Source: Candidatus Amesbacteria bacterium GW2011_GWB1_47_19
GTDB lineage: Bacteria; Patescibacteriota; Microgenomatia; CAZETR01; Amesbacteraceae
Reading direction: 5' to 3'
Length of the DNA: 64,000 bases
Assembly: GCA_001002325.1 (NCBI GenBank)
Contig: LCNZ01000002.1
Span: forward strand, 7,093 to 71,092
Part shown: piece by piece, positions 12,900 through 51,037 of the stretch
Numbering within the stretch: the first letter of the stretch is position 1
Layout: every line of letters starts with the position of its first letter
Program-made: the position numbers and the translations under genes
The notes under the pieces: generated by a model
Databases searched by the model: none
What the model saw: the letters and a program-made list of their open reading frames with translations, nothing else
Told to the model about the DNA's origin: nothing

Positions 12900-12904
12900 C
12901 GTAT

Positions 12905-14326: not shown

Positions 14327-15793
14327 CTTAATAAGAATCGTTCCCCGATATTCCTGATTATCGTAGTTTTCGGTAGCCGGAATGACAAATATTTTCAACA
14401 CCCGGTAATTATTCATTAAATACGGATTTTTGATATTTTCTGGTGAATAAACCACCTCTTTCCAGTCACCTAATGAAAAATTGGCGTCATTTTCAAGATA
14501 ATTCGTTATAACTATATATTCAACATTATTAATCTTACCTGGATAAGGTTTTATCATTTCCGGCGCCAATGGAAACCACATTGTTGTTAAACCGTGATAC
14601 CAGGCAGCCCATGCATCAAGATTTGTGATGGTCAATTTTCCACGAGGAATATTTTGTGCCATTACGTCTGCAATTGCTTTATAGGCTGGAGGCTGATTTG
14701 TATTAAACTGTTGGCGACGATATCTTGAATCCAGTGTGATGTAACCGATCATTGGCAATGACACGATGAATATCAACAGACCAGCAAATAGATACTTTAA
14801 ACGTAGGTTTTTTGCCAATTCGACCAAGGATATTGCCGCACATATAAAAATCAATGGTAAAACGGGATGGACATACCTGGCAATGGGTAGGGTTAGGGAG
14901 GCGGCAATAATTAAAAGCAGACCACTTATTAAAGTATATATATAAAAACCCCGTAACTCTCGTTGTTTTATTAAGGCAAACACCCCGTACAAGAATAAAG
15001 CCAATATTATCGGATTAACGATTCGATCCGGAAATTTAAGAAAATTATACAAGTTGTATACTGTTTTAGCCGCTAGTTTCCTGGTAGTAATCCGGTCAGA
15101 TGGAGCGCCACGCATATAAGCTCCGTTGTTATCGCTGGGTGTGGAATAGATGGAATTAAAATAGAATGCAGGGGAAACGAATGGATATCTGCTGGAAAAT
15201 GGTATACCTGTCAGAATAATAATTCCGGCTACAGCCAGTACTAATAAGCGTCGGCGGGAAAATATTAATACCAGTATAAAAAGAGAAACCGCAATAACTA
15301 TGGATTGAGCTCTGGTAAAAAACATTAACGTTACCGGAACCAATGACAACCATTTTCGTTTTGGATTATAAAGATACAGAATAACCGCGAGTATTATTTC
15401 CAATGACAAGAATATTTCACTTGTGCTGTTTCTAGCATAATCCAGGAAGTACATATTTCCCAACAGAAAAACAACCGCAGTTATCCCTGCTTGGATAGAA
15501 TGTAGCTTTTTACCGATTAAATAGACCAAAACAGCTATCAACAACCAAACACCAACTCCAAAAATGACAACTGTAGAATCACTTAATGGAAATATCCGAA
15601 AAACTATCGACAACACCCAAGAGGTCAAAGGATGAAAACCGGGAGAAAACGCATCACCCGGAGTATACTTTGACAGAAGAACCGGATTGAAGAGACTATG
15701 GTGTATGACCAAACCGCGGCCGTAATTAAAATTTATTGCTGCTTCCGCATATTTTACCGAGTCTGAAAAACTTAACCAAAAATTAAACGTCAT
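14312..15793 (-). CDS. GT-C fold membrane glycosyltransferase
   Basis: 493 aa polytopic. Early SDSVKYAEAA loop, HPL, ARYVHP motifs. Confidence 0.75.
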   Translation of the reverse strand: MTFNFWLSFSDSVKYAEAAINFNYGRGLVIHHSLFNPVLLSKYTPGDAFSPGFHPLTSWVLSIVFRIFPLSDSTVVIFGVGVWLLIAVLVYLIGKKLHSIQAGITAVVFLLGNMYFLDYARNSTSEIFLSLEIILAVILYLYNPKRKWLSLVPVTLMFFTRAQSIVIAVSLFILVLIFSRRRLLVLAVAGIIILTGIPFSSRYPFVSPAFYFNSIYSTPSDNNGAYMRGAPSDRITTRKLAAKTVYNLYNFLKFPDRIVNPIILALFLYGVFALIKQRELRGFYIYTLISGLLLIIAASLTLPIARYVHPVLPLIFICAAISLVELAKNLRLKYLFAGLLIFIVSLPMIGYITLDSRYRRQQFNTNQPPAYKAIADVMAQNIPRGKLTITNLDAWAAWYHGLTTMWFPLAPEMIKPYPGKINNVEYIVITNYLENDANFSLGDWKEVVYSPENIKNPYLMNNYRVLKIFVIPATENYDNQEYRGTILIKLVGL

Positions 15794-15805
15794 AAAAAAA
15801 TCGAA

Positions 15806-17290
15806 ATGATAGCTTCAAAATACTTGATGATAACCTGTATCTGCCTAACTATAGTTTATTCTTTTTATTTTCTCAATAAAATTAAGTTGGATAATACGGC
15901 CTACTGGAGCGGGGATACTATAGTTTACCAGTCTATTGCAGTAAATTTAGCCACAGGTCATGGTTATAAATATGGAATCATAGAACCATTCGAGAAATAT
16001 AAGTTTGGAAAAGGTCTCTTCAATCCAAAAGCAGACTTAAAAGAGGAACTTACTGACTGGGGTAAAGAAGGTGGACATGATTATTTTTTTACTACCCCGG
16101 GTTACATTTTATTTCTGGGATCAATTTACAAAATATTCGGTATTAGCCCGTTTATAGCCAAAGTAATACAAAATATCTTCATGATCACCATAGGTTCTTT
16201 TTTACCCTTCATTGGCTATATTTTTTGGAAAAGATCAGGACTCGTAAGTGGGATCATATCCGGTTTTATCTATCTCAATCACTTTTTTAGCCTTGAGGCT
16301 CCAGGCTCGCTTGCTGTTGCTAATGAAATACTCACCGAGCCTTTGATCTCTTTTTATCTTTTCTTAATGATCATTGTGTTTATGTATTGGTCAATCAAAA
16401 AGTCTTTTATAACGACGTTTAGTTTTGGAGTCTTGCTTGGTATCGGTGTACTGGTCAAGGGATCAAATATATTTATTCCCCTTCTGTTCTTAACCTATTT
16501 CTTTATTCTTATTTTTATAAAAAGGAGTTTAAGTTTGGCACATCTTTCTGTATTATTGTCGGGAATTATTATTTCTATTTTGCCATGGTCTATATATGCC
16601 ACCAAATCTTCAGATCAATTAATCTTAATTTCCACCCAAAGCAAACCGGCACTATTTGACGGAAATAATGAATACACAGTTATCGACGGAGCTTGGCACC
16701 CGGAGGGATACATTGACAATCCAAATAGTTTTTATCGGCAACCATGGCTGCAAAAATATCCGGATTTAATAAAGGTTGCCATATTTTATTATTATCATCC
16801 CAGAATATTTTTGCCTGTATTTCTTAAAAAGTTATTTTATGCATACCGATTATTTCCTTTTTTTAAAATTTCATTGACTCTGATAATTAGTTCAATCCTA
16901 ATTAATTATTTCTTGAATAAAAAGTTCAAAATAGTCATGTTGATGATAACTTTGCTTTGTTTGATAAATATATTCATTTTTCCCTATCCGGTAACTGGCA
17001 TGCCATTTATGAGCCAAATCTCTACTAGTGGTTCCTTATTAACCGTTTTACTTACAGTAGCCATGCTATTAGCGTATCGCAAAAAAATTATTCACACCAT
17101 AGACATACCTGCACCTATGATAATAATATTCGTGAATTATTTACTGATTACCCTGATGATTTTCGGTTACCCTAGATATATTCAGGTTATGAATTTTGTA
17201 TTTATTCTTGTATCGGTTAAACTCCTCATGGATTTTATAAAAGAATTCTTTTCTACCTTTTATTCTGTTTTCTTTACATCAGATGGTTAA
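15806..17290 (+). CDS. GT-C fold membrane glycosyltransferase
   Basis: TM1 followed by GDTIVYQSIAVNLATGHGY; TPGY, ILTEPL, YPRY motifs. Confidence 0.75.
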   Translation: MIASKYLMITCICLTIVYSFYFLNKIKLDNTAYWSGDTIVYQSIAVNLATGHGYKYGIIEPFEKYKFGKGLFNPKADLKEELTDWGKEGGHDYFFTTPGYILFLGSIYKIFGISPFIAKVIQNIFMITIGSFLPFIGYIFWKRSGLVSGIISGFIYLNHFFSLEAPGSLAVANEILTEPLISFYLFLMIIVFMYWSIKKSFITTFSFGVLLGIGVLVKGSNIFIPLLFLTYFFILIFIKRSLSLAHLSVLLSGIIISILPWSIYATKSSDQLILISTQSKPALFDGNNEYTVIDGAWHPEGYIDNPNSFYRQPWLQKYPDLIKVAIFYYYHPRIFLPVFLKKLFYAYRLFPFFKISLTLIISSILINYFLNKKFKIVMLMITLLCLINIFIFPYPVTGMPFMSQISTSGSLLTVLLTVAMLLAYRKKIIHTIDIPAPMIIIFVNYLLITLMIFGYPRYIQVMNFVFILVSVKLLMDFIKEFFSTFYSVFFTSDG

Positions 17291-18587
17291 ACCGAATAAA
17301 GAGCTGAAGAACTGGTACTACCACCGGGATTTAATAAATTATTATGCGTTTAACTTAACACCCCAATGTAGTATTTTAAACATTCACCATGGTAATGATA
17401 TTTTCCGCGATTCATTAAAATATAAGAATTATAAATCAGTTAACATTTCAAAAAAGTCAATATTTCCTGATAAAAAATTTGACTTTATTTTTATTTCTGA
17501 TTCTTTAAGTGTTGTCAGAGATATTCAGTCTTTGTTTCACAAGCTAAAGAAATGTTCTAGTCCCAACACCAGACTCATAGTCAATTATCATAATTATTTC
17601 TGGTTACCCTTTCTGAAAATAGCTGTGAAGCTTGGAATTAAAGACCCGCAAAAATATACGAATTGGTTAAATACTGACGACGTGATTAATTTGCTGTCTA
17701 TTGAGAATTATCAAATCATAAAAGTCGGGCAACGGTTATTGATACCGGTTTATATCCCGGTAATTTCTTATTTCATAAACAGGTATATTGCATATTTTCC
17801 GGTTATTAATAAATTATGTTTTACAAACTACCTTATTTCCCGGCCTGTAAATGATAATAAAATCTATGATCAAACCGTAAGCGTGATCATACCCGTCAGA
17901 AATGAGAGTGGGAATATTGAAAATACTATTAAGCGGCTTCCAAAGCTAGGTAAACACACAGAAATAATCTTTATAGAGGGTTATTCCTCTGACAATACCT
18001 GGGATAAAATTATCCGTGTTCAGAATAAGTACAAGAAATTGGATATAAAAGTCTTTAAACAGCAGGGTATAGGTAAGGCGGATGCTGTTCGACTTGGATT
18101 TATTAAAGCCAGAGGTAATATTCTAATGATTCTTGATGCAGATTTAACCGTACCTCCGGAAGAATTGACCAAATTTTATGAAGCTATTAATAAAGACAAA
18201 GGCGAATTCATTAATGGCTGTCGGTTGGTATATCCGGTGCAAAAAGAAGCAATGCAATTTCTTAACACAGTTGCCAACCACCTCTTCTCCACCATATTAT
18301 CATGGATATTGAATATAAAAATAAAAGATACACTATGTGGTACAAAAGTTATCTCAAAGAAGAACTATCTTCATATTGCCCGTAACCGTAAGTACTTTGG
18401 GGATTTTGATCCGTTCGGTGATTTTGATTTGATATTCGGAGCCGCGAAATTAAATCTGAAATATACTGAAATACCCATTCATTACCAATCACGTAAATAT
18501 GGACATACCAACATCTCCCGCTTCAAACATGGCTGGTTGTTACTGAAGATGACTATATTTGCACTATTCAAGTTAAAATTTGTCTAA
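17283..18587 (+). CDS. Fusion of degenerate methyltransferase-like domain and GT2 (polyprenol-phosphate sugar synthase-like)
   Basis: C-terminal SVIIPVRNE, GKADAVRLG, LDADL, DTLCGTK, FGDFDL; N-terminal KFDFIFISDSL...RLIV segment. Confidence 0.8.
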   Translation: MVKPNKELKNWYYHRDLINYYAFNLTPQCSILNIHHGNDIFRDSLKYKNYKSVNISKKSIFPDKKFDFIFISDSLSVVRDIQSLFHKLKKCSSPNTRLIVNYHNYFWLPFLKIAVKLGIKDPQKYTNWLNTDDVINLLSIENYQIIKVGQRLLIPVYIPVISYFINRYIAYFPVINKLCFTNYLISRPVNDNKIYDQTVSVIIPVRNESGNIENTIKRLPKLGKHTEIIFIEGYSSDNTWDKIIRVQNKYKKLDIKVFKQQGIGKADAVRLGFIKARGNILMILDADLTVPPEELTKFYEAINKDKGEFINGCRLVYPVQKEAMQFLNTVANHLFSTILSWILNIKIKDTLCGTKVISKKNYLHIARNRKYFGDFDPFGDFDLIFGAAKLNLKYTEIPIHYQSRKYGHTNISRFKHGWLLLKMTIFALFKLKFV

Positions 18588-19120
18588 TGCTGATCAATTT
18601 CTTAAAAAGATATTCATACAAACAAATCCTTCTTCTATTCATAGAAGACCACCTTCAGTTTCTCCTGGGTCCGTTACCGTCGTACGAAGGTATTATTGCC
18701 AGAAGACTCATGTACAAAATATTTCTCAAATTAGGTAAGGGGAGCATTATTTACCACCACGTAATATTCACTCACGGTTTTAATATCAAAATAGGTAATT
18801 ATTTTTCACCAAACTGCGGCACCCATATTGATGGTAGAGGAGGTGTGGAAATTGGCGATTATGTCCTGATCGGACCAAATGTTTTTATTGCTTCATCAAA
18901 CCATGTAGTCCGCACGAGAGAGCCCCGTATAAATTTTCCTCATATTCCCAAACCCACGTATATAGGTTCAAATGTCTGGATTGGGGCCAACACGGTTGTA
19001 TGTCCTGGGGTTAAGATTGGTGACAACAGTATTGTGGCCGCCGGTAGCATAGTAACAAAGGATGTAGCACACAACGTTATTGTTGCTGGAAATCCTGCCA
19101 GGGTAACACGGACTTTTTAG
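18587..19120 (+). CDS. Hexapeptide-repeat (LbH) sugar acetyltransferase
   Basis: IGSNVWIGANTVVCPGVKIGDNSIVAAGSIVTKDV...GNPA. Confidence 0.9.
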   Translation: MLINFLKRYSYKQILLLFIEDHLQFLLGPLPSYEGIIARRLMYKIFLKLGKGSIIYHHVIFTHGFNIKIGNYFSPNCGTHIDGRGGVEIGDYVLIGPNVFIASSNHVVRTREPRINFPHIPKPTYIGSNVWIGANTVVCPGVKIGDNSIVAAGSIVTKDVAHNVIVAGNPARVTRTF

Positions 19121-19121
19121 T

Positions 19122-20441
19122 ATGATAAATGGATTCAAAAATATTTTATTAAACAAGACGGATGATCTTCATAAACTGATATTTAGTCAACCCATGGGAA
19201 AAGAAATGACAAGTTTTACCAGGAATCTAACATGGACAGTTTTTGGCCTGGGTACATCCTCAGCTATTATCTTCGCGATTAACCTCCTTGCCGGAAGATT
19301 ATTAGCACCCGTTGAGTACGGAAAATACAATCTGGTTCTCAGTTTGTCACAAATTATTATGGTGTTTTCAGTATTTGGTATAGATATGGCTGCTGTAAAT
19401 TTCATTGCCAAATCAAAGAGTGAAACGGATAAGAAAGTTGTCGTATCAACTTCTCTTATGTTAATAACACTTAACTTAATCATGGTTGTTATCGGGACAA
19501 CTCTGTTTTTGAAACTGACCGATATTGCTGATTATTTTGAAATTAGTATGGTGATTTCGATTTTGATATATACAGCTCTATACTCATTTAGAAATGTTAC
19601 TGACGGAATCATGAGAGGATTACATAAATTTAAAGCTCAGTCGCTCTTGAGAATGGTTGAAGTTGGGGTTACCTTATTAACATTCTATTTAATGTTCTTT
19701 ATTGTCAAAAAATATGTATACACCGCTAATCTATTTGCTACACTCACGGGTGTTTTTGCCCTCGTTATCATCTATATCATCTATATAAAACACTATTTAT
19801 TCAAGTTTGACAGAATAATATTAATAGACTTAATGAAATACGGTGGGTTATTTTTCACTAGTGGAGTCGCCGGGGTCGTCTTTGGTCAATTAGACAAAAT
19901 TATTGTAACCACGAGTCTGGGAATTAGCTCATTTGGTTTGTACAGTGCATATTTCACAGCCTCAGGATTGGTTTCAATCAATTTGGCCGGGGTTGTAATC
20001 AACGTCTTTTTCCCAGCTGTATCAAAAGAGCCTAATAAATTACCGATTTACCATAAGTTAAATAGATTAACTGCTTACACAATCTTACCCTTGTTTATGT
20101 TAATGGTAATAATTGTCAGTGTGGCAATGAAAATATTTGGATCAAAATATCAATTTAATTTGGAATATATTCTGCTTTTCAGTATTTTGTCGGTACTTCA
20201 GTTCTTTTATTCCATCAATAATTCATTAATTACCACAATTTCGAGAAATTTATTTATCAAGTCAATTGTGTTTTCAATCCTGATTAGCACGTTCTATTTA
20301 TGTGGATATCTGATATTTATATGTTTATCTTTAATAACTATCACGACCGTAGTAACTTTAATGATCTCTTATGTCATATGCTTGATGTGGATGCAGCGGA
20401 TTATATTAAGGAATTACTTCGGATCTGGTCTGATAAAATGA
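19122..20441 (+). CDS. Wzx-type oligosaccharide flippase
   Basis: About 12 TM segments. GRLLAPVEYGKYNL, LDKIIV...LG...FGLYSAY, VFFP motifs. Confidence 0.85.
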   Translation: MINGFKNILLNKTDDLHKLIFSQPMGKEMTSFTRNLTWTVFGLGTSSAIIFAINLLAGRLLAPVEYGKYNLVLSLSQIIMVFSVFGIDMAAVNFIAKSKSETDKKVVVSTSLMLITLNLIMVVIGTTLFLKLTDIADYFEISMVISILIYTALYSFRNVTDGIMRGLHKFKAQSLLRMVEVGVTLLTFYLMFFIVKKYVYTANLFATLTGVFALVIIYIIYIKHYLFKFDRIILIDLMKYGGLFFTSGVAGVVFGQLDKIIVTTSLGISSFGLYSAYFTASGLVSINLAGVVINVFFPAVSKEPNKLPIYHKLNRLTAYTILPLFMLMVIIVSVAMKIFGSKYQFNLEYILLFSILSVLQFFYSINNSLITTISRNLFIKSIVFSILISTFYLCGYLIFICLSLITITTVVTLMISYVICLMWMQRIILRNYFGSGLIK

Positions 20442-21320: not shown

Positions 21321-21519
21321 ATCATTTGAAAGAAAATTAATGGATAGGTTTGACTTTGAAATCGATGGTGGATCTACTTTGATAATTCCCGATGACACAA
21401 GTTTCGTAGGTTTGATGTTTGCACGAATAATTGCAAATAGATTTATGGTAGATTTTGTTGAAAAAAAGAACGGAACAAGGCTGAGTTTTAATGGTTGGAA
21501 AATATGGCACAGGGGATAA
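21304..21519 (+). CDS. Hypothetical protein (71 aa)
   Basis: ATG ORF filling the gap and overlapping both neighbours; no motif recognised. Confidence 0.5.
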   Translation: MTKENKSFERKLMDRFDFEIDGGSTLIIPDDTSFVGLMFARIIANRFMVDFVEKKNGTRLSFNGWKIWHRG

Positions 21520-22112
21520 ATAAATCTCCTGCTTTTATTATTGATAGGGATGGGGTTATTAACCGAATGGTGAATTATTCGGGTCAGTGGGATTCACCCC
21601 AAAAACCCAAAGATGTCCGGTTGGTCGATGGTATAGTAGACATTTTGCACTGGTTAAATGAGAGACATATTCCGATAATCGAAATTTCCAACCAGCCTGG
21701 GATAGCCAAGGGTAAAATGACACAAGAAACCTCAGACGCAATTGAAAACAGGGTCCACCAGCTGTTGGCATCCCGGGGTGTCAGAATTGATAAAACATAC
21801 ATTTGCCCCCATCATCCCAAGGGTGTAGTGCCGGAATTGACACGTGAGTGCGATTGCCGTAAACCCAAAGCGGGCTTATTTATTAAAGCGGCTAAAGATT
21901 TAGGTATAAACTTCTCAGAAAGTGTAATGCTTGGCGATAAAGCCTCTGATATTCAAGCGGGAGATGCTGTGGGCTGTAAAACCGTACTGTATCTTCACAA
22001 TGAAGACCAACCGGAAAAAATCGAACAGACCAAAAGGGCCCGTGCTGACCATCAAGTCACCCGAGTTCAAGAAGTACTTGAAATATTACCTAAAATTTTT
22101 AAATTAGTTTAA
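21504..22112 (+). CDS. gmhB: GmhB-like sugar-bisphosphate phosphatase (HAD IIIA)
   Basis: DRDGVIN, SNQPGI, CPHHP...CDCRKP zinc site, GDKASD. ATG 21504 preferred over 21495. Confidence 0.9.
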   Translation: MAQGINKSPAFIIDRDGVINRMVNYSGQWDSPQKPKDVRLVDGIVDILHWLNERHIPIIEISNQPGIAKGKMTQETSDAIENRVHQLLASRGVRIDKTYICPHHPKGVVPELTRECDCRKPKAGLFIKAAKDLGINFSESVMLGDKASDIQAGDAVGCKTVLYLHNEDQPEKIEQTKRARADHQVTRVQEVLEILPKIFKLV

Positions 22113-22851
22113 AACTCCTATCTTTCTTCGCATCAAGGTAAGCTTGATCGAATTGGTTAAGTGTCTCAGTCAGCCTCTTTGACTCCAGCGATTTCTGCAA
22201 TACTTCAGATGTAACGGTTACAATATGAGCCCCTAATGAAAAGGCGATTCTAATTTGTTCTGAAGACCTGACGCTTCCAATAATCACTCTAACATTATTC
22301 AAATTTTGGTTTCTAATATAATTTAATAGAGAAATCAATGTCTCTTGTGCTCCAGGACCTTCCTGATATTTAGACTTGCTTTCTTCAGATCTTCCCCAGA
22401 ATAAGCTTATATATTGAGCACCTGCTTCTGCAGCTAGAGCCAGCTGGGCGAAGCTAATACCAACCGTGGCGTTAACTGTAATTCCTTTTTTAATCATGTT
22501 TCGGATCATCCCAAAACTCCTTCCATCGGGTAATATGGGGATTTTAATAACTGCATTGCTAGGATATTTTGCATGGTATTTGTCAGCCAGCGAGTACATA
22601 TCGGAATCAGACATTTTGGAATAGGGAATCTCGACAGATACCGGGAAGTTATCACCCACCAGAAAGCATATTTTATGAAGATGCTCTGGAATATTAACCA
22701 CGCCATCTTTCTGAAGTATCATAGGATTTGTGGTAATTCCTTTGATTACGGAACTCCATTTTTTTATCTCCTCTAGCTTACTAGAATCAAGAAAAAAACC
22801 TGAAATTCCGGAAAGCCGGTTACTTTTTTCCATTCGCTTTTCCATTATCAA
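22099..22851 (-). CDS. tal: Transaldolase (short TalC/FSA fold)
   Basis: FFLDS, GITTNP, PVSVE (Glu), Schiff-base VIKIP, ISLFWGR (Phe). The Glu/Phe pair indicates a transaldolase rather than FSA. Confidence 0.85.
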   Translation of the reverse strand: MIMEKRMEKSNRLSGISGFFLDSSKLEEIKKWSSVIKGITTNPMILQKDGVVNIPEHLHKICFLVGDNFPVSVEIPYSKMSDSDMYSLADKYHAKYPSNAVIKIPILPDGRSFGMIRNMIKKGITVNATVGISFAQLALAAEAGAQYISLFWGRSEESKSKYQEGPGAQETLISLLNYIRNQNLNNVRVIIGSVRSSEQIRIAFSLGAHIVTVTSEVLQKSLESKRLTETLNQFDQAYLDAKKDRSFKLI

Positions 22852-23461
22852 AATCCTTAATCATCTGTCGTAATGTAAATATTATTCCATGTGTGAGTAC
22901 GACATGAAATGCTTCTATAGCCGGTGTGCCGTAGACTTCATTTATGACTGGAACTACCAGGCAGACATTAGCCATTTGTTTCATAGCTCCTCCATCAAAT
23001 CCGGAAAATCCCAGGATTTTTGCACCTCGCGATTTTGCTAATTTCATTGCTGCTACCATATTCTGAGACCAGGGACCGGCATCTCCCATACCACTTCCTC
23101 CGTGTACCGAGAATCCCACTAAAACATCGTTCTTTGCCAACCAAGGTTCCAGTTGTTCGGCAAAAACTGTTCCCCAACCGCTATCATTCGTCCAGGCGCT
23201 AACCAATGGAATATTATCTACCAGCGACATGGCCTTGAACCGTTTCTTGTGAGGGATGATTGTGGTTTTTGCTAAATCAGATGCAAAATGGGTAGCTGTC
23301 GATGCGGAACCACCGCACCCCATCACAAATATTGTTCCGGAATTCTTCCAAGTCTCAAATAGAATATCTATTGCTTTATCCAATTCTTTTCCGCTTCCCA
23401 AAAATGTTGCGGACTTGATGATTTCAAAAAAATATTCTTTAAAAGTGAATTGTTGATTCAT
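22820..23461 (-). CDS. SIS-domain ketose-phosphate isomerase, divergent GmhA-like
   Basis: GCGGSASTATHFASDL, AWTND, GFDGG, EAFHVVLTH motifs. Confidence 0.85.
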   Translation of the reverse strand: MNQQFTFKEYFFEIIKSATFLGSGKELDKAIDILFETWKNSGTIFVMGCGGSASTATHFASDLAKTTIIPHKKRFKAMSLVDNIPLVSAWTNDSGWGTVFAEQLEPWLAKNDVLVGFSVHGGSGMGDAGPWSQNMVAAMKLAKSRGAKILGFSGFDGGAMKQMANVCLVVPVINEVYGTPAIEAFHVVLTHGIIFTLRQMIKDFDNGKANGKK

Positions 23462-23481
23462 AAAGAAGTATCCCTATAATA

Positions 23482-24492
23482 TCACACCCTTTTAACATTC
23501 TCAGTTCTTTCAACTTGCCTGTAAATGTTTTCAATTATTTTCATCGTTTCCAATCCGTCAGATCCGGTTCCCAACAATTTTTCTTTCCCTGAAATAGCAT
23601 TCTTAAAATTAATCCACTCTCTTTTCCACGAAGGATCAGGTTCGGAAAACTTCCAAACCCGTTCCTTTGGAGCCATACCGGGTGTTCTGAGACCTAATAC
23701 CAGGGTCTCAGTACCATAAGACCCACCCAAGCCGTTTACTTTTAAATAAGCTTCCGTTCCATAGACTTCGAAAATAAATCTATTTTTCCATTCTGTCCAA
23801 CTTGCATGGAGTTCGGCAATACCGTTTTCTCCCCTAAGCAATAAAAAGGCATTGTCTTCGACTCGCACCGGCCAATATGAAGTCGTCAATTCTGCCTTAA
23901 TTGATGAAAACGTTCCCATAAACCACAATACCAAGTCAATTAGATGTGATCCCTGGTCTATTAATTCTCCGCCACCGGATAACATTGGATTCATCCGCCA
24001 CTCTTTTTCATATCCTGGCCTCCCCCCGATACCGTATGTAGATTTTATATACATTATATTGCCGATCTTACCTTTCACAAAAATCTTATAAGCTTTAAAT
24101 ATCGCCGGATGAAATCGGTGGTTATAGCCAGTTTTGTAAATCAAACCTCTTTTTCTTGCCTCATTCACACAATTCGTTATTTCTTTGACATTCAACCCTA
24201 AAGGTTTTTCGCATAGCACATGTTTTCCGGATATTAAAGCAGATTTGGAAATTTCTGCCAAACGGTTATGAGTAGTAGAAACTATAACTGCATTAATATG
24301 TAGATCAGAGACAACATCTTGCCAATTGTCTGAATATTTACAATTGTTCAATCTATTGGACAAGGATTCGGCTTTGGATATGTCAGTATCAGCCACCCGG
24401 AATACAGTATCCCTTCCCAGCAGCTTTATAACTTCAGCTCTTTTTGTTCCAATTATACCTGCCCCGATAATACCAATTTTCATTATATTCAA
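23482..24492 (-). CDS. Gfo/Idh/MocA family oxidoreductase
   Basis: IGIIGAGIIG, HVLCEKP, GYNHRF, GGGELIDQGSHLID motifs. Confidence 0.9.
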   Translation of the reverse strand: MNIMKIGIIGAGIIGTKRAEVIKLLGRDTVFRVADTDISKAESLSNRLNNCKYSDNWQDVVSDLHINAVIVSTTHNRLAEISKSALISGKHVLCEKPLGLNVKEITNCVNEARKRGLIYKTGYNHRFHPAIFKAYKIFVKGKIGNIMYIKSTYGIGGRPGYEKEWRMNPMLSGGGELIDQGSHLIDLVLWFMGTFSSIKAELTTSYWPVRVEDNAFLLLRGENGIAELHASWTEWKNRFIFEVYGTEAYLKVNGLGGSYGTETLVLGLRTPGMAPKERVWKFSEPDPSWKREWINFKNAISGKEKLLGTGSDGLETMKIIENIYRQVERTENVKRV

Positions 24493-25475
24493 AAATTTAC
24501 TAAGGTTTTGACCCCTTCATTATCAAAATGTATCAGCATTTCTGTTAAACCGGCCTTTGACATGGATTTTCTTAATTTTGATTTATCTCCTGGACAACAA
24601 AATAATAAAAATCCTCCCCCCCCCGCTCCGATTATCTTACCCCCGAGAGCACCGGCATCTTTTGCCTGTTCGTACCAATTATCTATTTTCACACTGCTTA
24701 TCGCCTTTGATAATTTTCTTTTATATTGCCAATGTACATCCAACAATTTTCCGAATTGCTCTATTTTGCCATTTTCCAAAGCTTTAAAAATTTCATCACC
24801 TAATTCTTTTATAAAATGCAGATTATTTATTACCTGAGAATCATTTTTAGTAGTAGATCGATTTTGTTTGGAAAGAATCTTCCCGCTGGCCCGGCTGATT
24901 CCGGTAAAAAAAAGTACAAAACTATTTTCTAGATCTCTTAAAGCGTGGGGAGACACGTCAGGTTTAATAACCTCCACCTGCCCTTTTTTATTAATTTCCA
25001 TCCTGGTCAATCCGCCAAAAGCAGCCATATACTGATCCTGTTTTCCCACCGGTTTTTTTAGAATCTCAATTTCAATTTTGCATGCATCTTCAGCCAATCG
25101 TCTGGAACTTACTACTTCCCCCTTTAAATCATAAAGAGCTTTCAAAGTAGATACCAGGAAACTTCCCGATGAACCCATTCCAGTGCCATGAGGTAGATCA
25201 GCCACCCATGCCAATTCAACATTTTTGGTCACGCCCGTCAATTTCAAAGCTTCCTTAGCCAAGTCATGATTTACCTCGTTAACAGAGTCAACGGTTTCCG
25301 AATCGGAATATTTTAACCGGATTAATTTATCACTTACCGGTCGATTGGCAGTAGTATAAATATACTTATTGATGGATACTGATATTAATCTACCCCCGAA
25401 TTTTGTGTAGTAAGAAGGAAGATCGGTACCCCCACCTCCGAGGGGTATTCTGAATGGAGCGCGTACCATAATCAT
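24489..25475 (-). CDS. hddA: GHMP sugar-phosphate 1-kinase (HddA/LmbP-like)
   Basis: RAPFRIPLGGGGTD, PHGTGMGSSG, GKQDQY, GGKIIGAGGGGF motifs. Confidence 0.85.
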   Translation of the reverse strand: MIMVRAPFRIPLGGGGTDLPSYYTKFGGRLISVSINKYIYTTANRPVSDKLIRLKYSDSETVDSVNEVNHDLAKEALKLTGVTKNVELAWVADLPHGTGMGSSGSFLVSTLKALYDLKGEVVSSRRLAEDACKIEIEILKKPVGKQDQYMAAFGGLTRMEINKKGQVEVIKPDVSPHALRDLENSFVLFFTGISRASGKILSKQNRSTTKNDSQVINNLHFIKELGDEIFKALENGKIEQFGKLLDVHWQYKRKLSKAISSVKIDNWYEQAKDAGALGGKIIGAGGGGFLLFCCPGDKSKLRKSMSKAGLTEMLIHFDNEGVKTLVNF

Positions 25476-26185
25476 AAATTCTTTCTCCTGATGTGTTCAC
25501 TGGTCTTTAACAGGGAATCAAATGTTCCCATATCTGACCAATAGTCATTTTTCTTCAACAATATTAACTGTCCAATTTTAAGATATTCATTATTTAGATC
25601 CGTTATTTCTAATTCTCCCCGGGTTGACGGTCTAATTTTATCTATCATATCAAATACCCGGTTATCATAAAAATGTGGCCCCGTCACTACCAGGTTAGAA
25701 TTAGCCTTTTGCGCTTTTTCTTCAATCGATATTAATTTACCCCGACTGTCATATTTCGGAATTGCAAAACGATTGAATTCGGATGTTTTCCGTAAAAAAG
25801 ACATGGCGCCTGTGGCGAAAGCAGACACTTCGGATTTAAAATCATTTTCGTAATAATTATCACCCGCACAAACCATTATTGATTGATTTTGTGTAAATTT
25901 TCGGCATCTCAAAATAGCGTCGGACATTCCTGCTGGTGTCGGTTGTTCAACGTAGGTCAGCCGGACATCCCATTTCGCCGGTATATGATTCATCAACATT
26001 CTTATCTGGTTTCCGTGTGGTGGACCGCTAATAACCGCAATATCTTTTATTCCGGAGGAAAATATTGTGTGCAAGGGATAAAAAAACATCGGCAGGTTCC
26101 AAACCAGTAAAGCGTGTTTATTTACAGCCTTCGTAACTGGATTCAATCTGGTGCCTGTTCCCCCGGTCAGAACAATACCTTTCAT
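25472..26185 (-). CDS. Sugar-1-phosphate nucleotidyltransferase (short RmlA-like)
   Basis: GGTGTRLNPVT..NKH, GDN, IEEK, RGELEITD, WSDMGT motifs. Confidence 0.9.
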   Translation of the reverse strand: MKGIVLTGGTGTRLNPVTKAVNKHALLVWNLPMFFYPLHTIFSSGIKDIAVISGPPHGNQIRMLMNHIPAKWDVRLTYVEQPTPAGMSDAILRCRKFTQNQSIMVCAGDNYYENDFKSEVSAFATGAMSFLRKTSEFNRFAIPKYDSRGKLISIEEKAQKANSNLVVTGPHFYDNRVFDMIDKIRPSTRGELEITDLNNEYLKIGQLILLKKNDYWSDMGTFDSLLKTSEHIRRKNL

Positions 26186-26187
26186 TT

Positions 26188-27309
26188 CTAGATATTTTTG
26201 ACTTTTCTGATAACTTTTTGTCGAATCATATTTTTCATTGCTTCATTTGAAACATCCTCTATCCTGCCTTGGGTAAGTAACCAATCCCGATATGCCGCCA
26301 GTGATTTTTCCAGACTAACCTTTGGAATCCAACCCAATTTATTTAATCGGGATATATCAGATACCGTAGAGCGGGTATCACCAACACGAAATATTCCTGG
26401 AATTTGTGGTTCAAGCTTGCTATTAAATACTTTTAACATAGTCCGGGCAAACTCAATAGCGCTATATGCTTTACCGCCACCTACGAAGAATATCTCATTA
26501 TTTGCTCTGGGATCTTCAAGCACAATCAAATTAGCCCGGGCGACGTCAGCACAATTAACATAATCCCTTAATCCCATTCCGTCTTCAACCAATATTGGAG
26601 GTTTATTATTAAGAATTCTCATAGCAAACACTCTTAAGATTCCGGAATAGGCGTTGTAGATTGAATTGCGTGGTCCCTGAACATAAGTATATCTCAAACA
26701 TACCGTGGGTATTAAATATTTTTTTCCTAATGTTTGAGCTAATAACTCAACTGCATACTTGGATATACCATATGTCGTAATAGGCCGACATATATCTTCG
26801 GTCATTAGTACATTTTTGCATTCCCGCTTACATGTCGGACATCTAATTTCCCATTGCCCCGTTTCCAATTGTTCAATCGGTCTGGGTTCAGCCCAGAATT
26901 CTCCATGATTTTTACAATTCCATTTTCCGTCTCCCGCCACTGCTTGCGAGGAGGCAAAAACAATCTTTTTTATTGGTAACCTATTAGCTAATATAAGCTC
27001 AAACATTAGAGCCGTGCTTTCGGTATTTGTGTGGATAAAATGGCCAAAATCTGGCATGTAATCCTGATATGCCGCCATATGAAAAACGGCATCGACACCC
27101 CTCAAACTTCGGTATAAATCTTTGGGGCTACTGACATCACCGAGAATAAATTCAGCTTCTGGGGGGATATAACCGGGCTTGCCTTTAGGATGAACTCTTC
27201 TTTGCAGAGAATCCAGAATTCTTACCTTATACCCTTTCGATATCAGCAAGTCGACAGTATGAGATCCGATAAAACCTGCGCCTCCGGTAACTAAAACATG
27301 CTTATACAC
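26188..27309 (-). CDS. NAD-dependent sugar epimerase/dehydratase
   Basis: VLVTGGAGFIGSH, ASSQAVAG, YGISK motifs and a CxxH/CPTC insertion. GTG 27309 chosen because the track's 27447 start overlaps the divergent SDR. Confidence 0.85.
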   Translation of the reverse strand: MYKHVLVTGGAGFIGSHTVDLLISKGYKVRILDSLQRRVHPKGKPGYIPPEAEFILGDVSSPKDLYRSLRGVDAVFHMAAYQDYMPDFGHFIHTNTESTALMFELILANRLPIKKIVFASSQAVAGDGKWNCKNHGEFWAEPRPIEQLETGQWEIRCPTCKRECKNVLMTEDICRPITTYGISKYAVELLAQTLGKKYLIPTVCLRYTYVQGPRNSIYNAYSGILRVFAMRILNNKPPILVEDGMGLRDYVNCADVARANLIVLEDPRANNEIFFVGGGKAYSAIEFARTMLKVFNSKLEPQIPGIFRVGDTRSTVSDISRLNKLGWIPKVSLEKSLAAYRDWLLTQGRIEDVSNEAMKNMIRQKVIRKVKNI

Positions 27310-27316
27310 AGCGCAT

Positions 27317-27326
27317 ATTATATAAT
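27317..27326. promoter_or_regulatory. Palindromic double -10 box ATTATATAAT
   Basis: Gives TATAAT on both strands: 7 nt before GTG 27309 (-) and 10 nt before ATG 27337 (+). Confidence 0.65.
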
Positions 27327-27336
27327 AATTTTCCGG

Positions 27337-28182
27337 ATGAAAAAAAAGATCGCTATCGTCACTGGTGGTGCGAGAGGTATAGGGGCAGCCATAGCTCAGA
27401 GGATTGCCGGAGAAAATTACCACGTGGTCATATGTTCCAGATCTCAACAGGAAATTGATGATTTTATTAAGACTATGTCCCGATTGAAGTTACAATTATC
27501 CGGATTAGTAACTGACATCTCGAAATTTGGCCAATGTCAGAGATTATTTAACTTTATTCAGGGATTAAATGGAGAACTGGAAATATTGGTTAACAATGCC
27601 GGGATTTACGGACCTATAGGTAAGCTGGAAGAAAATTCGTATTTGGAATGGGAAGATACTATCAGGATTAATTTGCTCGGTACAGTTTACTGTACTCAAC
27701 TGGCAATTCCCATTATGCAGAAAAGAAAATCGGGGAAAATCATCAACATCTGCGGTGGGGGAGTGGGAGGAAAGGATCCTCTGGCTCGATTTTCAGCTTA
27801 TTATACATCCAAAACCGCCATAGCAGGATTTACTGAGGTAACAGCGGCTGAATTGGCCGAATACAATATTCAGGTTAATTGTATCGCTCCGGGTGCTGTA
27901 AATAGTCGTTTTACAGTCTACTTAATTTCTCAGGGGCGAAACAAAGCCGGAGATGAAATGTACACCAAAGCCATAAAGCAAAAAAAGACTGGAGGAGATT
28001 CTCCGGAATTAGCGGCAAGACTTGTATCATTTTTAATTTCAAATAAAGCAAACCATATCTCAGGCTGCTTACTAAGTGCTAAATGGGATAAGAAGGGGGA
28101 ACTGTCGGACTCTCGCACTTTCACTCCAAATCTATACAAATTAAGAAGAATTGACAACCGGAACTTCTGGGATCATGAATAA
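27337..28182 (+). CDS. Classical SDR oxidoreductase (FabG-like)
   Basis: TGGARGIG, NNAG, YYTSK (YxxxK), VNCIAPG motifs; ATG 27337. Confidence 0.9.
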   Translation: MKKKIAIVTGGARGIGAAIAQRIAGENYHVVICSRSQQEIDDFIKTMSRLKLQLSGLVTDISKFGQCQRLFNFIQGLNGELEILVNNAGIYGPIGKLEENSYLEWEDTIRINLLGTVYCTQLAIPIMQKRKSGKIINICGGGVGGKDPLARFSAYYTSKTAIAGFTEVTAAELAEYNIQVNCIAPGAVNSRFTVYLISQGRNKAGDEMYTKAIKQKKTGGDSPELAARLVSFLISNKANHISGCLLSAKWDKKGELSDSRTFTPNLYKLRRIDNRNFWDHE

Positions 28183-29476
28183 ACATAATGAGGATATGGA
28201 GATCGGAATTTTAGGACTTTGGCACCTGGGATGTGTTTACTCTACGGGACTGGCAAAATATGGTTATAAAGTTACGGGGTTCGATACAGATCAGCAAATT
28301 GTAGCCAGGCTCAATAAATCAACCCCACCGGTTTTTGAGCCCAATTTGGTTGAAGAAATTAATAATCATTTAAACAAAAACCTTACCTTCACCAGTGATC
28401 CAATTAAAGCCATAAAGCATAAAAAATATGTTTTCATCACTTTGGATGTTCCGGTAGATAATCATGACAAGTTAATAATTCGACCATTAAATAACCTAAT
28501 CAGATTAGTATTGCTCCATTGTTCTCCTGGTACCGCCGTTGTGGTTTCCAGCCAAGTCCCGGTGGGAACCATGCGAAATTTACATCAAAAACTTATGCAA
28601 AAAAACGGTTCCCTTGGTATATGCTTTCCTGAAAATGTTAGGTTGGGTCAGGCTTTTAAGACATTTCTAAAACCCGATAGGATTGTACTGGGAATCGACG
28701 CAAAATCTTCATTGATTAATTTCAAGAAAGATTTTCCCATATTTAATTGCCCGGCTCTGGATATGAGTTTTGAATCAGCTGAAATGGTAAAACACACTTT
28801 AAATTCTTATTTAGCAGTGATGATCAGCTTTGCCAGCGAAGTATGTGATATTTGCGAATTGATCGGTGCGGATTATTCAAAAGTTCTTTCCGCCCTCAGG
28901 TCGGATTCCCGTGTTAGTCCGTCAGCTCCTTTAAACCCCGGCATCGGTTTTGCCGGAGGCACTATTGGCAGGGATATTCAGGTCTTGAAAAGCATCACGG
29001 CCAAGCTGGATTATTCACCCAAATTAATCAAAACTGCATATCAGGTTAATCAGGATAGACTGGATAAGTTGATAAACAAGACACAATTCTTATTAGGAAA
29101 TATTAAAGGTAAAAATATCGGCCTTTTAGGTCTGACTTACAAACCGGGTACTGACACTCTTCGGCGGTCAAAATCTCTTGAACTTGCGCATAGGCTGATC
29201 AGCAAGGGCGCAGCGGTTAGGGGATACGATCCGGCTATCAAACCGGCAGTAAAATTACCGGTAAAAATTGATGTAGCCGAAAACTTAGCGTCATTTTTCA
29301 ATCAGCTGGACCTGGCGATCACTATGACCCCATGGCTGGAATTTAAAAATATAACTGCAGATGATCTCAAACCTATGAAAAAATATTTGGTGTTGGACGC
29401 CCTAAATATTCTCAGTCCGGACTTGAAAAAACAACTACCCTCTTTAAAATACCTTCGTACCGGAGTAAGTCAATAA
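28175..29476 (+). CDS. UDP-glucose/GDP-mannose dehydrogenase family protein lacking the catalytic Cys
   Basis: GLWHLG, SSQVPVGT, PENVRLG, SAEMVKHTLN, GFAGGTIGRD, LGLTYKPGTDTLRRS motifs. Confidence 0.9.
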   Translation: MNKHNEDMEIGILGLWHLGCVYSTGLAKYGYKVTGFDTDQQIVARLNKSTPPVFEPNLVEEINNHLNKNLTFTSDPIKAIKHKKYVFITLDVPVDNHDKLIIRPLNNLIRLVLLHCSPGTAVVVSSQVPVGTMRNLHQKLMQKNGSLGICFPENVRLGQAFKTFLKPDRIVLGIDAKSSLINFKKDFPIFNCPALDMSFESAEMVKHTLNSYLAVMISFASEVCDICELIGADYSKVLSALRSDSRVSPSAPLNPGIGFAGGTIGRDIQVLKSITAKLDYSPKLIKTAYQVNQDRLDKLINKTQFLLGNIKGKNIGLLGLTYKPGTDTLRRSKSLELAHRLISKGAAVRGYDPAIKPAVKLPVKIDVAENLASFFNQLDLAITMTPWLEFKNITADDLKPMKKYLVLDALNILSPDLKKQLPSLKYLRTGVSQ

Positions 29477-31258: not shown

Positions 31259-31265
31259 CGGCCGT

Positions 31266-36459: not shown

Positions 36460-37320
36460 ATGTCTAAATTACTTACAAAACTTTGGCAGATCTTTGAACA
36501 GGTAGTGTTTCATTATTCTTACCCCAGATACAATTACCCCTTATATTTCGTAGCCAAGCGCTATTGTAAATTCTACGAAAACAACGAAAATGGGAACCTC
36601 TCTACTAACGGCGAATTATTCTTTATTACCAGTATACTAAAACAAATTGACCCAGAGGTTTTATTTGATATCGGTGCCAATAAAGGAGAGTATTCGCAAT
36701 TAATATTAGATCAATTCCCTGATTGTATTATTCACTGTTTCGAACCCGATAGCAGGGTATTTTCCATACTTAAGACCAAATATAAAAATATTAACAATAT
36801 TAAGTTAAATCACTTGGCAGTATCCGATCACAACGGTAAAGCAAAATTCTATCTAAACAAGGACCCTGGACTGAATTCTTTATTTGACATGAATAATATC
36901 GGTTATCATTATGACAATATGCTTTCAACGGTAAGTCTTGAAACTATAGATAATTACTGTAAAACTCATTATATTAAAACTATCGATTTTGTAAAAATCG
37001 ATGTTGAAGGAGCTGAGCTGTCGGTTTTAATGGGAGGACCAAGAATGTTATCGGGTAATAGAATAAAAATGATTCAGTTTGAATACGGACATGCAGCCAT
37101 ATCTTCCAAGACCTTCTTAAAAGATATATATGATTTACTGTTAGGTTACAACTATACTATTTATAAAATTATGCCCCTGGGTTTGCTTCATCAGCCTTAT
37201 TCACCCTATAATGAGCACATCGCTTTTGCCAATTACCTGGCTGTAAATTCGAAAGTCAAAATCAATTCTGAATATTTAATAAATCGACCAGATATTTATC
37301 GTCAAGTTCCCATAATATGA
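36460..37320 (+). CDS. FkbM family methyltransferase
   Basis: FDIGANKGEYS, FEP, FVKIDVEGAELSVLMG, IQFEY motifs. Confidence 0.9.
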   Translation: MSKLLTKLWQIFEQVVFHYSYPRYNYPLYFVAKRYCKFYENNENGNLSTNGELFFITSILKQIDPEVLFDIGANKGEYSQLILDQFPDCIIHCFEPDSRVFSILKTKYKNINNIKLNHLAVSDHNGKAKFYLNKDPGLNSLFDMNNIGYHYDNMLSTVSLETIDNYCKTHYIKTIDFVKIDVEGAELSVLMGGPRMLSGNRIKMIQFEYGHAAISSKTFLKDIYDLLLGYNYTIYKIMPLGLLHQPYSPYNEHIAFANYLAVNSKVKINSEYLINRPDIYRQVPII

Positions 37321-38447: not shown

Positions 38448-38450
38448 TAT

Positions 38451-40345: not shown

Positions 40346-40352
40346 AATTAAT

Positions 40353-47218: not shown

Positions 47219-47248
47219 ATCAAACAGAGTAAATTATATATTAAATTA

Positions 47249-48016: not shown

Positions 48017-48039
48017 ATCTATGGAATTTAAAATAATTA

Positions 48040-49943: not shown

Positions 49944-49945
49944 CT

Positions 49946-50290
49946 TTATCGCCGATGAGTCTTTTTATCTGATCCTTTGATAGCTTCCTGTCGAACAAAG
50001 TCTGAAAATTTCTTCTTAATCTGTTGATTATCTACGTAATTTTTATAAGAGGTTATCCAAAGCGCAACGAATGACAAAACCATTATCAAATCCATTACTC
50101 TGACAACCCCCAAACGATACGTAATCTTTTCTAATAAATCTGGAAATAGTATTGACGCTAGAAAGAAAAGCCATATTAATGACCACACAATCAACTCGTT
50201 CACAAAAATTATTCTCTTCTTATATACAAGAAATACCCAAAACAACATGTACAGTCCAAAACAAAACAACCCCAACTGAAAAATTACCAT
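49946..50290 (-). CDS. DUF2304-like small membrane protein
   Basis: Three TM segments, LFP...LGVVRVMD, terminal FVRQEAI; coupled to a DPM-like GT2. Confidence 0.75.
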   Translation of the reverse strand: MVIFQLGLFCFGLYMLFWVFLVYKKRIIFVNELIVWSLIWLFFLASILFPDLLEKITYRLGVVRVMDLIMVLSFVALWITSYKNYVDNQQIKKKFSDFVRQEAIKGSDKKTHRR

Positions 50291-50958: not shown

Positions 50959-51037
50959 TTCGAGCCTCGATAATATTGTATTATAGTAATAGTTTATTAA
51001 AAAAGCAGACTCAATAAATAAAGACTATCATTTAATT

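What the first reader, a model, noticed from the sequence alone, without database searches (positions are those of the whole stretch)
21504..29476. Lincomycin-type NDP-octose cassette embedded in a surface-glycan locus
Seen: nine contiguous genes: GmhB phosphatase, transaldolase, atypical SIS isomerase, Gfo/Idh/MocA oxidoreductase, GHMP kinase, nucleotidyltransferase, NAD epimerase, SDR and a Cys-less UGDH homologue. Eight of them form two divergent operons sharing one palindromic -10. Established: heptose activation needs only GmhA, HddA, GmhB and HddC. In Streptomyces lincosamide synthesis, transaldolase LmbR makes octulose-8-P from ribose-5-P, LmbN isomerises it, LmbP/LmbK/LmbO give GDP-octose, LmbM epimerises, the LmbL (UGDH-like) and LmbZ/CcbZ (oxidoreductase) pair performs 6,8-dehydration, and LmbS/CcbS transaminates. 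Inference: every family is matched except the aminotransferase, whose place is taken by an SDR ketoreductase. The predicted product is a neutral NDP-8-deoxy-octose (or 7-deoxy-heptose) for a cell-surface glycan, which would be a non-antibiotic context for this chemistry.
Basis: partly seen in the sequence, partly recalled or inferred. Interest (0 to 1): 0.9.

Follow-up and report, generated by a model that had tools for sequence, protein, structure and literature searches.

The report
Lincomycin-like eight-carbon surface-sugar pathway
Nine neighbouring genes in a surface-sugar region of a tiny-genome bacterium form a cassette shared by many bacteria and archaea; three of its enzymes group with those that build the eight-carbon sugar of lincomycin-type antibiotics, so it likely makes an activated eight-carbon deoxy-sugar, which would be a new kind of cell-surface building block.

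Summary
The nine genes are real and intact. I retrieved the Streptomyces caelestis ccb proteins and compared them directly. The Cys-less UGDH-like protein, the Gfo/Idh/MocA protein and the SIS isomerase form supported clades with CcbL, CcbZ and CcbN. The transaldolase falls with CcbR, apart from housekeeping copies. The kinase and phosphatase match at family level only. No DegT aminotransferase was found in the genome; an SDR occupies that slot in 76 of 91 loci. The cassette is widespread: 34 of 80 related loci carry all eight partner families. A loop insert marks the CcbN clade and tracks a nearby transaldolase (8/8 versus 1/13 kinase-selected loci). Best reading: NDP-8-deoxy-octose for a surface glycan (about 0.55; any octose about 0.7). 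A modified heptose remains possible (about 0.22). A 7-deoxy-heptose is chemically unlikely by this route. Ten paper searches found no description of the cassette. This scan has already noted the same cassette on other DNA in at least nine findings. No biochemistry exists; the chain length is inferred.

The parts
21504..22112 (+). GmhB/HAD-IIIA phosphatase; predicted to remove the terminal phosphate of the sugar 1,8-bisphosphate (LmbK/CcbK role)
   Evidence: TIGR01656 above cut-off, GmhB models below cut-off; 28% to CcbK; no tree made
22099..22851 (-). Small TalC-type transaldolase; predicted to make octulose-8-P from ribose-5-P (LmbR/CcbR role)
   Evidence: PF00923; D22, E74, K103, F151, R154, S193, R195 conserved in 22 cassette copies; 33% to CcbR; cassette copies plus CcbR stand apart from 6 non-cassette small Tal proteins; only transaldolase found in this genome
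22820..23461 (-). SIS isomerase of the LmbN/CcbN clade, with the SVHGG loop insert
   Evidence: 44% to CcbN; clade 98/97 with the insert columns left out; GmhA models far below cut-off
23482..24492 (-). Gfo/Idh/MocA oxidoreductase of the LmbZ/CcbZ clade
   Evidence: 36% to CcbZ; clade SH-aLRT 97; shared YGIGGR..YE.EWR..GG.L..QG.H motif
24489..25475 (-). HddA-like GHMP kinase; predicted anomeric (C1) kinase
   Evidence: NF049969 151 bits against cut-off 600; 34% to CcbP; tree does not discriminate
25472..26185 (-). RmlA-like nucleotidyltransferase; likely dTTP or UTP, replacing the HddC/LmbO type
   Evidence: Best PDB hits are all Glc-1-P thymidylyltransferases; separate from CcbO; no RmlC found in the genome; same position in L021 and L024
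26188..27309 (-). Extended-SDR epimerase with a CxxH...CxxC insert; not an LmbM/CcbM orthologue
   Evidence: PF01370; YxxxK kept; AU test p=8e-6 against grouping with CcbM; also beside insert-less SIS genes in L223, L226, L227
27317..27326 (.). Palindromic ATTATATAAT, a -10-like hexamer on each strand; candidate shared short-leader promoter
   Evidence: function untested; not conserved in L021
27337..28182 (+). Classical SDR; predicted NADPH ketoreductase standing in for the LmbS/CcbS aminotransferase
   Evidence: PF00106; TGGARGIG, CSR and YxxSK motifs; within 4 kb of 76 of 91 Cys-less UGDH genes
28175..29476 (+). Cys-less UGDH-family dehydrogenase of the LmbL/CcbL clade (start 28175 or 28196)
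   Evidence: GLWHLG, SQVP, PENxRLG, KH, GGTIGRD shared with CcbL, 31% identity; clade SH-aLRT 100 against 13 canonical UGDHs; UGDH fold, TM 0.92
12018..20441 (.). Left glycan context: epimerase, PglF-like dehydratase, PMT_2 (GT-C) membrane transferase, GT2 fusion, O-acetyltransferase, Wzx flippase
   Evidence: Pfam; which transferase uses the sugar is not determined
36460..51640 (.). Right glycan context: GT2 and GT4 transferases, methyltransferases, Asn-synthase-like amidotransferase, second SIS gene without the insert
   Evidence: Pfam; SIS tree

Best explanation
The nine genes form a conserved nucleotide-sugar cassette inside a surface-glycan island, and it likely makes a neutral NDP-8-deoxy-octose (probably dTDP- or UDP-linked here) by lincosamide-type chemistry, with an SDR predicted to reduce the C6 ketone that Streptomyces transaminates. 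Inferred steps: (1) the transaldolase joins a C3 unit from F6P or S7P to ribose-5-P, giving octulose-8-P; (2) the CcbN-type isomerase gives the gluco-configured octose-8-P; (3) kinase and GmhB give octose-1-P; (4) the RmlA-like enzyme adds a pyrimidine nucleotide, which suits a gluco-configured ring; (5) the epimerase sets C6 and/or C4; (6) the Cys-less UGDH homologue oxidises the secondary C6-OH to a ketone, C8-OH is lost by beta-elimination and the Gfo protein reduces C7, a net loss of water; (7) the SDR reduces C6; (8) neighbouring GT2/GT4/GT-C enzymes place the sugar in a surface glycan. Shown here: genes, motifs, relationships and co-occurrence. Every reaction is inferred.
For: Real Ccb sequences were used (L150, named CcbZ, CcbP and CcbN; CcbZ carrier domain matches PDB). 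UGDH-like: 22 cassette and 4 Streptomyces rows form one side of a 100-supported branch against 13 Cys-bearing UGDHs; the same Cys-to-Thr and KST-to-SQ changes occur in CcbL. Gfo: 15 cassette rows plus CcbZ and 2 relatives, support 97. SIS: 19 insert-bearing rows including CcbN, 98/97 with the insert left out. Among loci picked by the kinase alone, a transaldolase lies within 12.5 kb of 8 of 8 insert-type and 1 of 13 insert-less SIS genes. 11 of 14 other cassette-bearing genomes keep a further transaldolase, so the cassette copy is not needed merely to supply S7P. SDR next to 76 of 91 Cys-less UGDH genes; the 5 with an aminotransferase and no SDR are 4 Streptomyces clusters and L038. No DegT family member in this 97.8%-complete genome. 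LmbR chemistry: passage in PMC5854111. Lmb/Ccb roles: table in PMC4351081 and passage in PMC12945683.
Against: No biochemistry, and no cultured carrier with a solved glycan was found. Ordinary transaldolase also makes octulose-8-P in Trypanosoma (PMC5854111), and the Tal gene is swapped between TalC and staphylococcal types across cassettes, so its sequence does not fix the chain length. It is the only transaldolase found in this genome, which also has transketolase and RpiB, so both E4P and R5P could be available. The kinase tree puts CcbP with Streptomyces kinases from insert-less clusters, not with the cassette. The epimerase and nucleotidyltransferase are not CcbM/CcbO orthologues, and this epimerase family also sits beside insert-less, heptose-like SIS genes. 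One insert-less locus (L169) has a transaldolase. Related genomes are not independent samples, and the insert arose once. The 6,8-dehydration by LmbL/LmbZ is recalled; the primary paper could not be read.
Confidence: 0.55

Rival explanations
1. The cassette makes a modified NDP-heptose. The transaldolase only supplies sedoheptulose-7-P, and the UGDH-like, Gfo and SDR enzymes invert or remove a hydroxyl (C6 epimer, or a 4-deoxy sugar).
For: SIS, kinase, GmhB and NT are the families of heptose activation. The Tal is this genome's only one, and transketolase is present. The epimerase family also occurs with insert-less SIS genes. The kinase is not diagnostic.
Against: GmhA and HddA models score far below cut-off (88/209 and 151/600 bits). 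The SIS belongs to the CcbN clade, not to the canonical or insert-less groups. Insert-less loci rarely carry Tal (1 of 13). A C6 inversion needs two redox enzymes, not three, and the only characterised members of the L and Z clades act on an octose.
Confidence: 0.22
2. The product is an octose or a longer sugar but not 8-deoxy: the three redox enzymes epimerise C6/C7 or stop at a keto-sugar, or the transaldolase takes another aldose phosphate.
For: The Tal/SIS evidence speaks to chain extension, not to dehydration. L161 and L164 carry Tal, insert-type SIS, kinase, NT and HAD with no UGDH/SDR within the 20 kb fetched, so the modules are separable. The epimerase differs from CcbM, so the substrate reaching the L/Z pair may differ in stereochemistry.
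Against: L and Z orthologues travel together: Gfo lies near the Cys-less UGDH in 67 of 80 loci, many of the misses on cut contigs, as expected of a two-protein dehydratase.
Confidence: 0.17
3. The sugar goes into a secreted small molecule, as in lincosamides, and not into the cell surface.
For: The only characterised relatives serve antibiotic synthesis.
Against: The window's annotated neighbours are flippases, GT2/GT4/GT-C enzymes, acetyl- and methyltransferases, with no adenylation, carrier or export genes among the 59 ORFs scanned. Glycosyltransferases and methyltransferases also dominate the 78 neighbour proteins scanned from 22 other loci.
Confidence: 0.05

Closest known systems
Amino-octose branch of celesticetin and lincomycin biosynthesis (CcbR/N/P/K/O, then CcbM/L/Z/S; Lmb equivalents)
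   Same: Same ordered set of enzyme families. L, Z and N orthology shown by trees with S. caelestis proteins; R, P and K at 28-34% identity. Same Cys-to-Thr change in the dehydrogenase and same SIS insert.
   Different: SDR instead of aminotransferase; RmlA-type instead of guanylyltransferase-type NT; unrelated epimerase family; no carrier domain on N or Z; glycan locus instead of antibiotic cluster.
GDP-D-glycero-alpha-D-manno-heptose pathway (GmhA, HddA, GmhB, HddC)
   Same: Isomerase, anomeric kinase, phosphatase, nucleotidyltransferase logic.
   Different: SIS lies outside canonical GmhA and carries an insert after the STSG-type loop; GmhA and HddA equivalog scores far below cut-off; NT is not HddC-type; extra transaldolase and three oxidoreductases.
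UDP-glucose 6-dehydrogenase family (UGDH/GMD)
   Same: Fold (TM 0.92 to 4a7p); Lys199, Asn203 and Asp260 kept.
   Different: Catalytic Cys is Thr256, KST becomes SSQ and GxGYVG becomes GLWHLG, so the second oxidation to an acid is not expected (UGDH mechanism recalled).
RmlA glucose-1-phosphate thymidylyltransferase
   Same: Best PDB and NCBIfam matches; GDN, EK, RGELEITD and W-D-GT motifs; Gln in the base-binding loop.
   Different: 198 bits against cut-off 360; GLYFY becomes GPHFY/GPHxF in three cassette copies; no RmlC found in the genome.

Membership tests
Lincosamide amino-octose pathway (lmb/ccb) | LmbL/CcbL-type Cys-less dehydrogenase | tested here: met
Lincosamide amino-octose pathway (lmb/ccb) | LmbZ/CcbZ-type Gfo/Idh/MocA oxidoreductase | tested here: met
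   (12 other Gfo rows as outgroup, all from fetched loci)
Lincosamide amino-octose pathway (lmb/ccb) | LmbN/CcbN-type isomerase | tested here: met
Lincosamide amino-octose pathway (lmb/ccb) | LmbR/CcbR-type transaldolase | tested here: inconclusive
   33% identity; on the same side as CcbR against 6 non-cassette small Tal proteins (97), but not its sister; backbone unresolved
Lincosamide amino-octose pathway (lmb/ccb) | LmbP/CcbP-type kinase and LmbK/CcbK-type phosphatase | tested here: inconclusive
   34% and 28% identity; CcbP groups with other Streptomyces kinases; no phosphatase tree
Lincosamide amino-octose pathway (lmb/ccb) | LmbO/CcbO-type guanylyltransferase | tested here: not met
   No BLASTP hit to CcbO at E 1e-3; RmlA-like. 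Most other cassette copies have the HddC-like type
Lincosamide amino-octose pathway (lmb/ccb) | LmbM/CcbM-type epimerase | tested here: not met
   21% identity; AU p=8e-6. Most other cassette copies have the CcbM clade
Lincosamide amino-octose pathway (lmb/ccb) | LmbS/CcbS aminotransferase | tested here: not met
   No tblastn hit to CcbS and no PF01041 match in the genome
Lincosamide amino-octose pathway (lmb/ccb) | C8 product formed from ribose-5-P | not testable with these tools
   Needs enzyme assays
GDP-D-glycero-D-manno-heptose pathway | Canonical GmhA | tested here: not met
   TIGR00441 88 bits against 209; outside the canonical clade
GDP-D-glycero-D-manno-heptose pathway | HddA equivalog and HddC-type transferase | tested here: not met
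   NF049969 151 against 600; no NF049965 hit at 1e-10 for the window NT
UDP-glucose 6-dehydrogenase (acid-forming) | Catalytic cysteine in GGSCFPKD | tested here: not met
   Thr instead; no Cys at that place in any copy where the motif was matched: 119 of 120 close homologues and 83 of 85 locus copies

The most novel reading that the evidence does not exclude
A widespread, undescribed pathway puts an 8-deoxy-octose into the surface glycans of hundreds of bacterial and archaeal species. The lincosamide sugar branch of Streptomyces is a side-shoot of it, made by swapping the SDR for an aminotransferase. This window carries a pyrimidine-nucleotide (dTDP/UDP) version with a recruited RmlA-like transferase and a different epimerase. 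The SIS loop insert would be a sequence marker for octose versus heptose pathways.
Probability: 0.5. Interest if true: 0.85.

Novelty: new variant of a known kind. Interest (0 to 1): 0.72.

Why it matters
To my knowledge (recalled, and not contradicted by the ten searches) unbranched aldo-octoses are known from antibiotics, not from cell-surface glycans, whose C8 sugar is Kdo. If the reading holds, a gene set now labelled 'UDP-glucose dehydrogenase, heptose kinase, transaldolase' in at least 567 genome loci encodes a new glycan building block. It would point to where the lincomycin sugar chemistry came from, give soluble non-Streptomyces homologues for working out the Cys-less dehydrogenase plus Gfo dehydration, and supply a dTDP/UDP-octose route for glyco-engineering. 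It is directly testable: nine soluble enzymes, and a cultured carrier of the GDP-type version.

Tried and rejected
Single-protein scan of genome contigs found nothing; the alignment scan succeeded. A sample of 251 Actinomycetota gave no second clear subfamily member: the 14 next-best loci checked all had the canonical Cys motif. Second UGDH copies in G062 and G065 were canonical. S. lincolnensis lmb proteins were not obtained; S. caelestis ccb stood in. The primary papers (Wang 2020 PNAS, Sasaki 2012 and Lin 2014 JACS, and one review) are not held; their text and supplements may bear on the LmbL/Z mechanism. Metabolic test (is E4P unavailable?): uninformative, as transketolase and RpiB are both present. 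The kinase tree did not discriminate. The Glu-to-Asp and Gln-to-Glu changes in the SIS are not diagnostic, since insert-less copies share them. L038 looked like a counter-example (Cys-less UGDH with an insert-less SIS), but its genome has NT-kinase-insert SIS-HAD-Tal on another contig (L302). The promoter consensus scan missed the palindrome and was at chance level (34 sites against 28.8±5.0). No RNA holder listed. The 7-deoxy-heptose product was rejected on chemical grounds. No complex prediction was run, as binding is not claimed. No cultured strain with a solved glycan and this cassette was found.
Full report
Observation. The window lies on contig C2 of a 998-kb, 97.8%-complete genome. The few named close homologues of its UGDH-like protein are from Microgenomates-type CPR genomes. 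Contigs from 4 public runs match with one substitution and no indel. The block is 39.8% GC in a low-GC island of a 47% GC genome. Its neighbours are flippases, GT2, GT4 and PMT_2 transferases, acetyl- and methyltransferases. The palindromic -10 exists and fits a genome-wide short-leader spacing, but it is not conserved in the closest locus, and the SIS gene may have its own promoter.

Distribution. The UGDH-like protein defines a subfamily with GLWHLG, PENxRLG, KHxLN and GxTLxRD motifs and no catalytic Cys. With score thresholds, these 80 have SDR 70, epimerase 70, Gfo 67, kinase 61, SIS 53, Tal 53, NT 49 and HAD 48; 34 have all eight and 13 have seven, although many contigs are cut. Of 40 loci with at least 7 kb on both sides, 21 had all eight. 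Complete sets occur in Chloroflexota, Verrucomicrobiota, Myxococcota, Acidobacteriota, Actinomycetota, CPR groups, Hadarchaeota, Nanobdellota and Methanoperedens, and on plasmids of Rhizobium jaguaris and Lawsonia intracellularis. The common order is Epi-UGD-SDR-Gfo-kinase-NT-SIS-HAD-Tal. As a control, 33 loci of canonical UGDH genes (31 with 1.5-kb flanks, 2 of 15-20 kb) showed no SDR, Gfo or Tal hit. Among 60 relatives the subfamily appeared at high score in 2 (G027, G058) and in none of 26 genomes of the same family or genus, so it is patchy. G027 has nearly the same gene arrangement.

Comparison with the real lincosamide enzymes. A kinase profile over 401 Streptomyces genomes gave 14 hits; I fetched 12. 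L150 is the S. caelestis ccb cluster: three proteins were named CcbZ, CcbP and CcbN, and the carrier domain matches PDB CcbZ. The other Ccb names follow from family and position. BLASTP identities to window proteins: SIS/CcbN 44%, Gfo/CcbZ 36%, kinase/CcbP 34%, Tal/CcbR 33%, UGD/CcbL 31%, GmhB/CcbK 28%, epimerase/CcbM 21%, NT/CcbO no hit. Trees (quick, LG+G4 unless stated): cassette UGD plus 4 Streptomyces rows against 13 canonical, SH-aLRT 100; cassette Gfo plus CcbZ, 97; insert-type SIS plus CcbN, 99 and 98/97 in a careful mixture-model tree without the insert columns; 6 non-cassette small transaldolases form their own branch (97), leaving CcbR with cassette copies, the backbone unresolved. 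Against the reading: CcbP groups with other Streptomyces kinases; the window epimerase is rejected from the CcbM clade (AU p=8e-6), whereas the usual cassette epimerase belongs to it; the window NT is RmlA-like, whereas most cassettes and CcbO are HddC-like. The Streptomyces rows have atypical composition, which the tree tool flagged.

Chain length. The CcbN clade has S-V-x-G-G plus 5-9 extra residues where canonical GmhA has S-T-S-G-N-S. That this loop binds the terminal phosphate is recalled, and that the insert makes room for a C8 sugar is my inference. Over all loci, 63 of 65 insert-type and 2 of 16 insert-less SIS genes had a transaldolase within 12.5 kb, but most of those loci were chosen by the UGD gene. 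In loci chosen by the kinase alone the counts are 8 of 8 (L150, 151, 153, 154, 161-164) and 1 of 13 (L143-145, 147, 149, 152, 165-167, 169-172). I dropped L141 and L142 (overlap L143), L146 (near-copy of L145) and five loci without SIS; L170 is a 9-kb contig and the L152 gene is cut by the locus edge. The insert arose once and kin are not independent, so I give no p-value weight. That the insert-less clusters make heptoses is presumed, not shown. 11 of 14 other cassette genomes hold a further transaldolase (without S. caelestis, 107). This genome has only the cassette copy, plus transketolase and RpiB, so here it could serve both ends.

Last step. No CcbS homologue or PF01041 member was found in the genome. 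Of 91 Cys-less UGD genes, 76 have the SDR within 4 kb (8 of these also have an aminotransferase further off), 5 have an aminotransferase and no SDR, and 10 have neither, several on short contigs. The SDR has a Ser/Ala-Arg pair after the second strand and YxxSK, read as NADPH-dependent reduction (rule recalled).

Mechanism. UGDH oxidises C6 twice, and the Cys is needed for the second step (recalled). The window protein keeps the fold (pLDDT 94.5; TM 0.92) and Lys199, Asn203 and Asp260, but has Thr at the Cys. In a higher sugar C6 is a secondary alcohol, so one oxidation gives a ketone. In an octose, C8-OH is beta to it and can be eliminated; reducing the resulting C7 carbonyl gives the 6-keto-8-deoxy sugar. 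That matches the net 6,8-dehydration I recall for LmbL/CcbZ; the split of steps between the two proteins is my inference. In a heptose C7 is alpha to C6, so 7-deoxygenation cannot go this way. Reduction by the SDR gives a neutral 8-deoxy-octose. [quoted passage not shown]

Literature. Seen: passages of PMC12945683, PMC4351081, PMC5854111 and PMC10072801 ('several octoses' in K antigens, not named in the passages seen); otherwise search listings only. Not seen: Wang 2020, Sasaki 2012, Lin 2014. Ten searches, combining octose, transaldolase, Lmb/Ccb names, LPS, O-antigen, S-layer, glycan and Lawsonia, returned no description of this cassette outside lincosamides; subscription journals are largely not covered. 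Earlier notes of this scan report the same cassette in other genomes with the same reading. They are not independent evidence, and my reading was recorded before I saw them.

Verdict. A real, conserved and apparently undescribed cassette that works like the lincosamide octose branch but is not a member of it: three defining enzymes (O, M, S) are replaced. New variant of a known kind. Interest 0.72.

Noticed in passing
L153 (G497) and L154 (G428): Two Streptomyces genomes (proteins named Streptomyces sp. Ru62 and sp. NRRL S-340) carry a compact, divergent R-S-O-P-Z-N-M-L-K run with aminotransferase: a lincosamide-like amino-octose cluster whose product I did not identify.
   Followed up: partly
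L178, L179, L182, L191 (IMG/VR contigs): Contigs filed as viral carry most of the cassette; they may be phage-borne or misfiled bacterial islands.
   Followed up: no
L180, L181, L183-L190, around 9900-10700 (L181 about 9000-9700): A match to only the middle part (about residues 75-290) of the Cys-less UGDH, mostly followed by an SDR-like ORF with a DegT-like aminotransferase nearby, recurs in ten IMG/VR contigs.
   Followed up: no
window 51038-51640 and G000:C7:77440-78402: A second, insert-less SIS gene and an orphan HddA-like kinase on another contig; their closest relatives lie side by side in L167 (same family), suggesting a separate, split heptose-type route.
   Followed up: partly
window 20490-21320 and 32075-32992: Two inositol-monophosphatase-family genes flank the cassette; IMP-family genes also lie beside the cassette in L046 and L062 and probably L022. 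Possible extra sugar-phosphate phosphatases.
   Followed up: no
L161 and L164: Tal, insert-type SIS, kinase, NT and HAD without the UGD/SDR module within 20 kb: a candidate plain NDP-octose version.
   Followed up: partly
window 32994-36443 and 29482-30198: SIS (HxlB-like), Rpe, an NT-kinase fusion and a KdsC-like phosphatase, with a stand-alone NT paralogue: a second rare-sugar module next door; noted by earlier findings.
   Followed up: no
window 30575-31294: 239-aa ORF with no Pfam or NCBIfam match and no homologue in the 84 loci compared.
   Followed up: no
G000:C1:57999: A second ATTATATAAT with candidate start codons on both strands; overlapping divergent -10 boxes recur in this genome.
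   Followed up: partly
TIGR02134 'staphylococcal-type' transaldolases in L046, L067, L073, L083, L098: This transaldolase type branches inside the cassette/CcbR side of the tree and is the usual cassette Tal outside CPR; many genes so annotated may serve sugar extension.
   Followed up: partly
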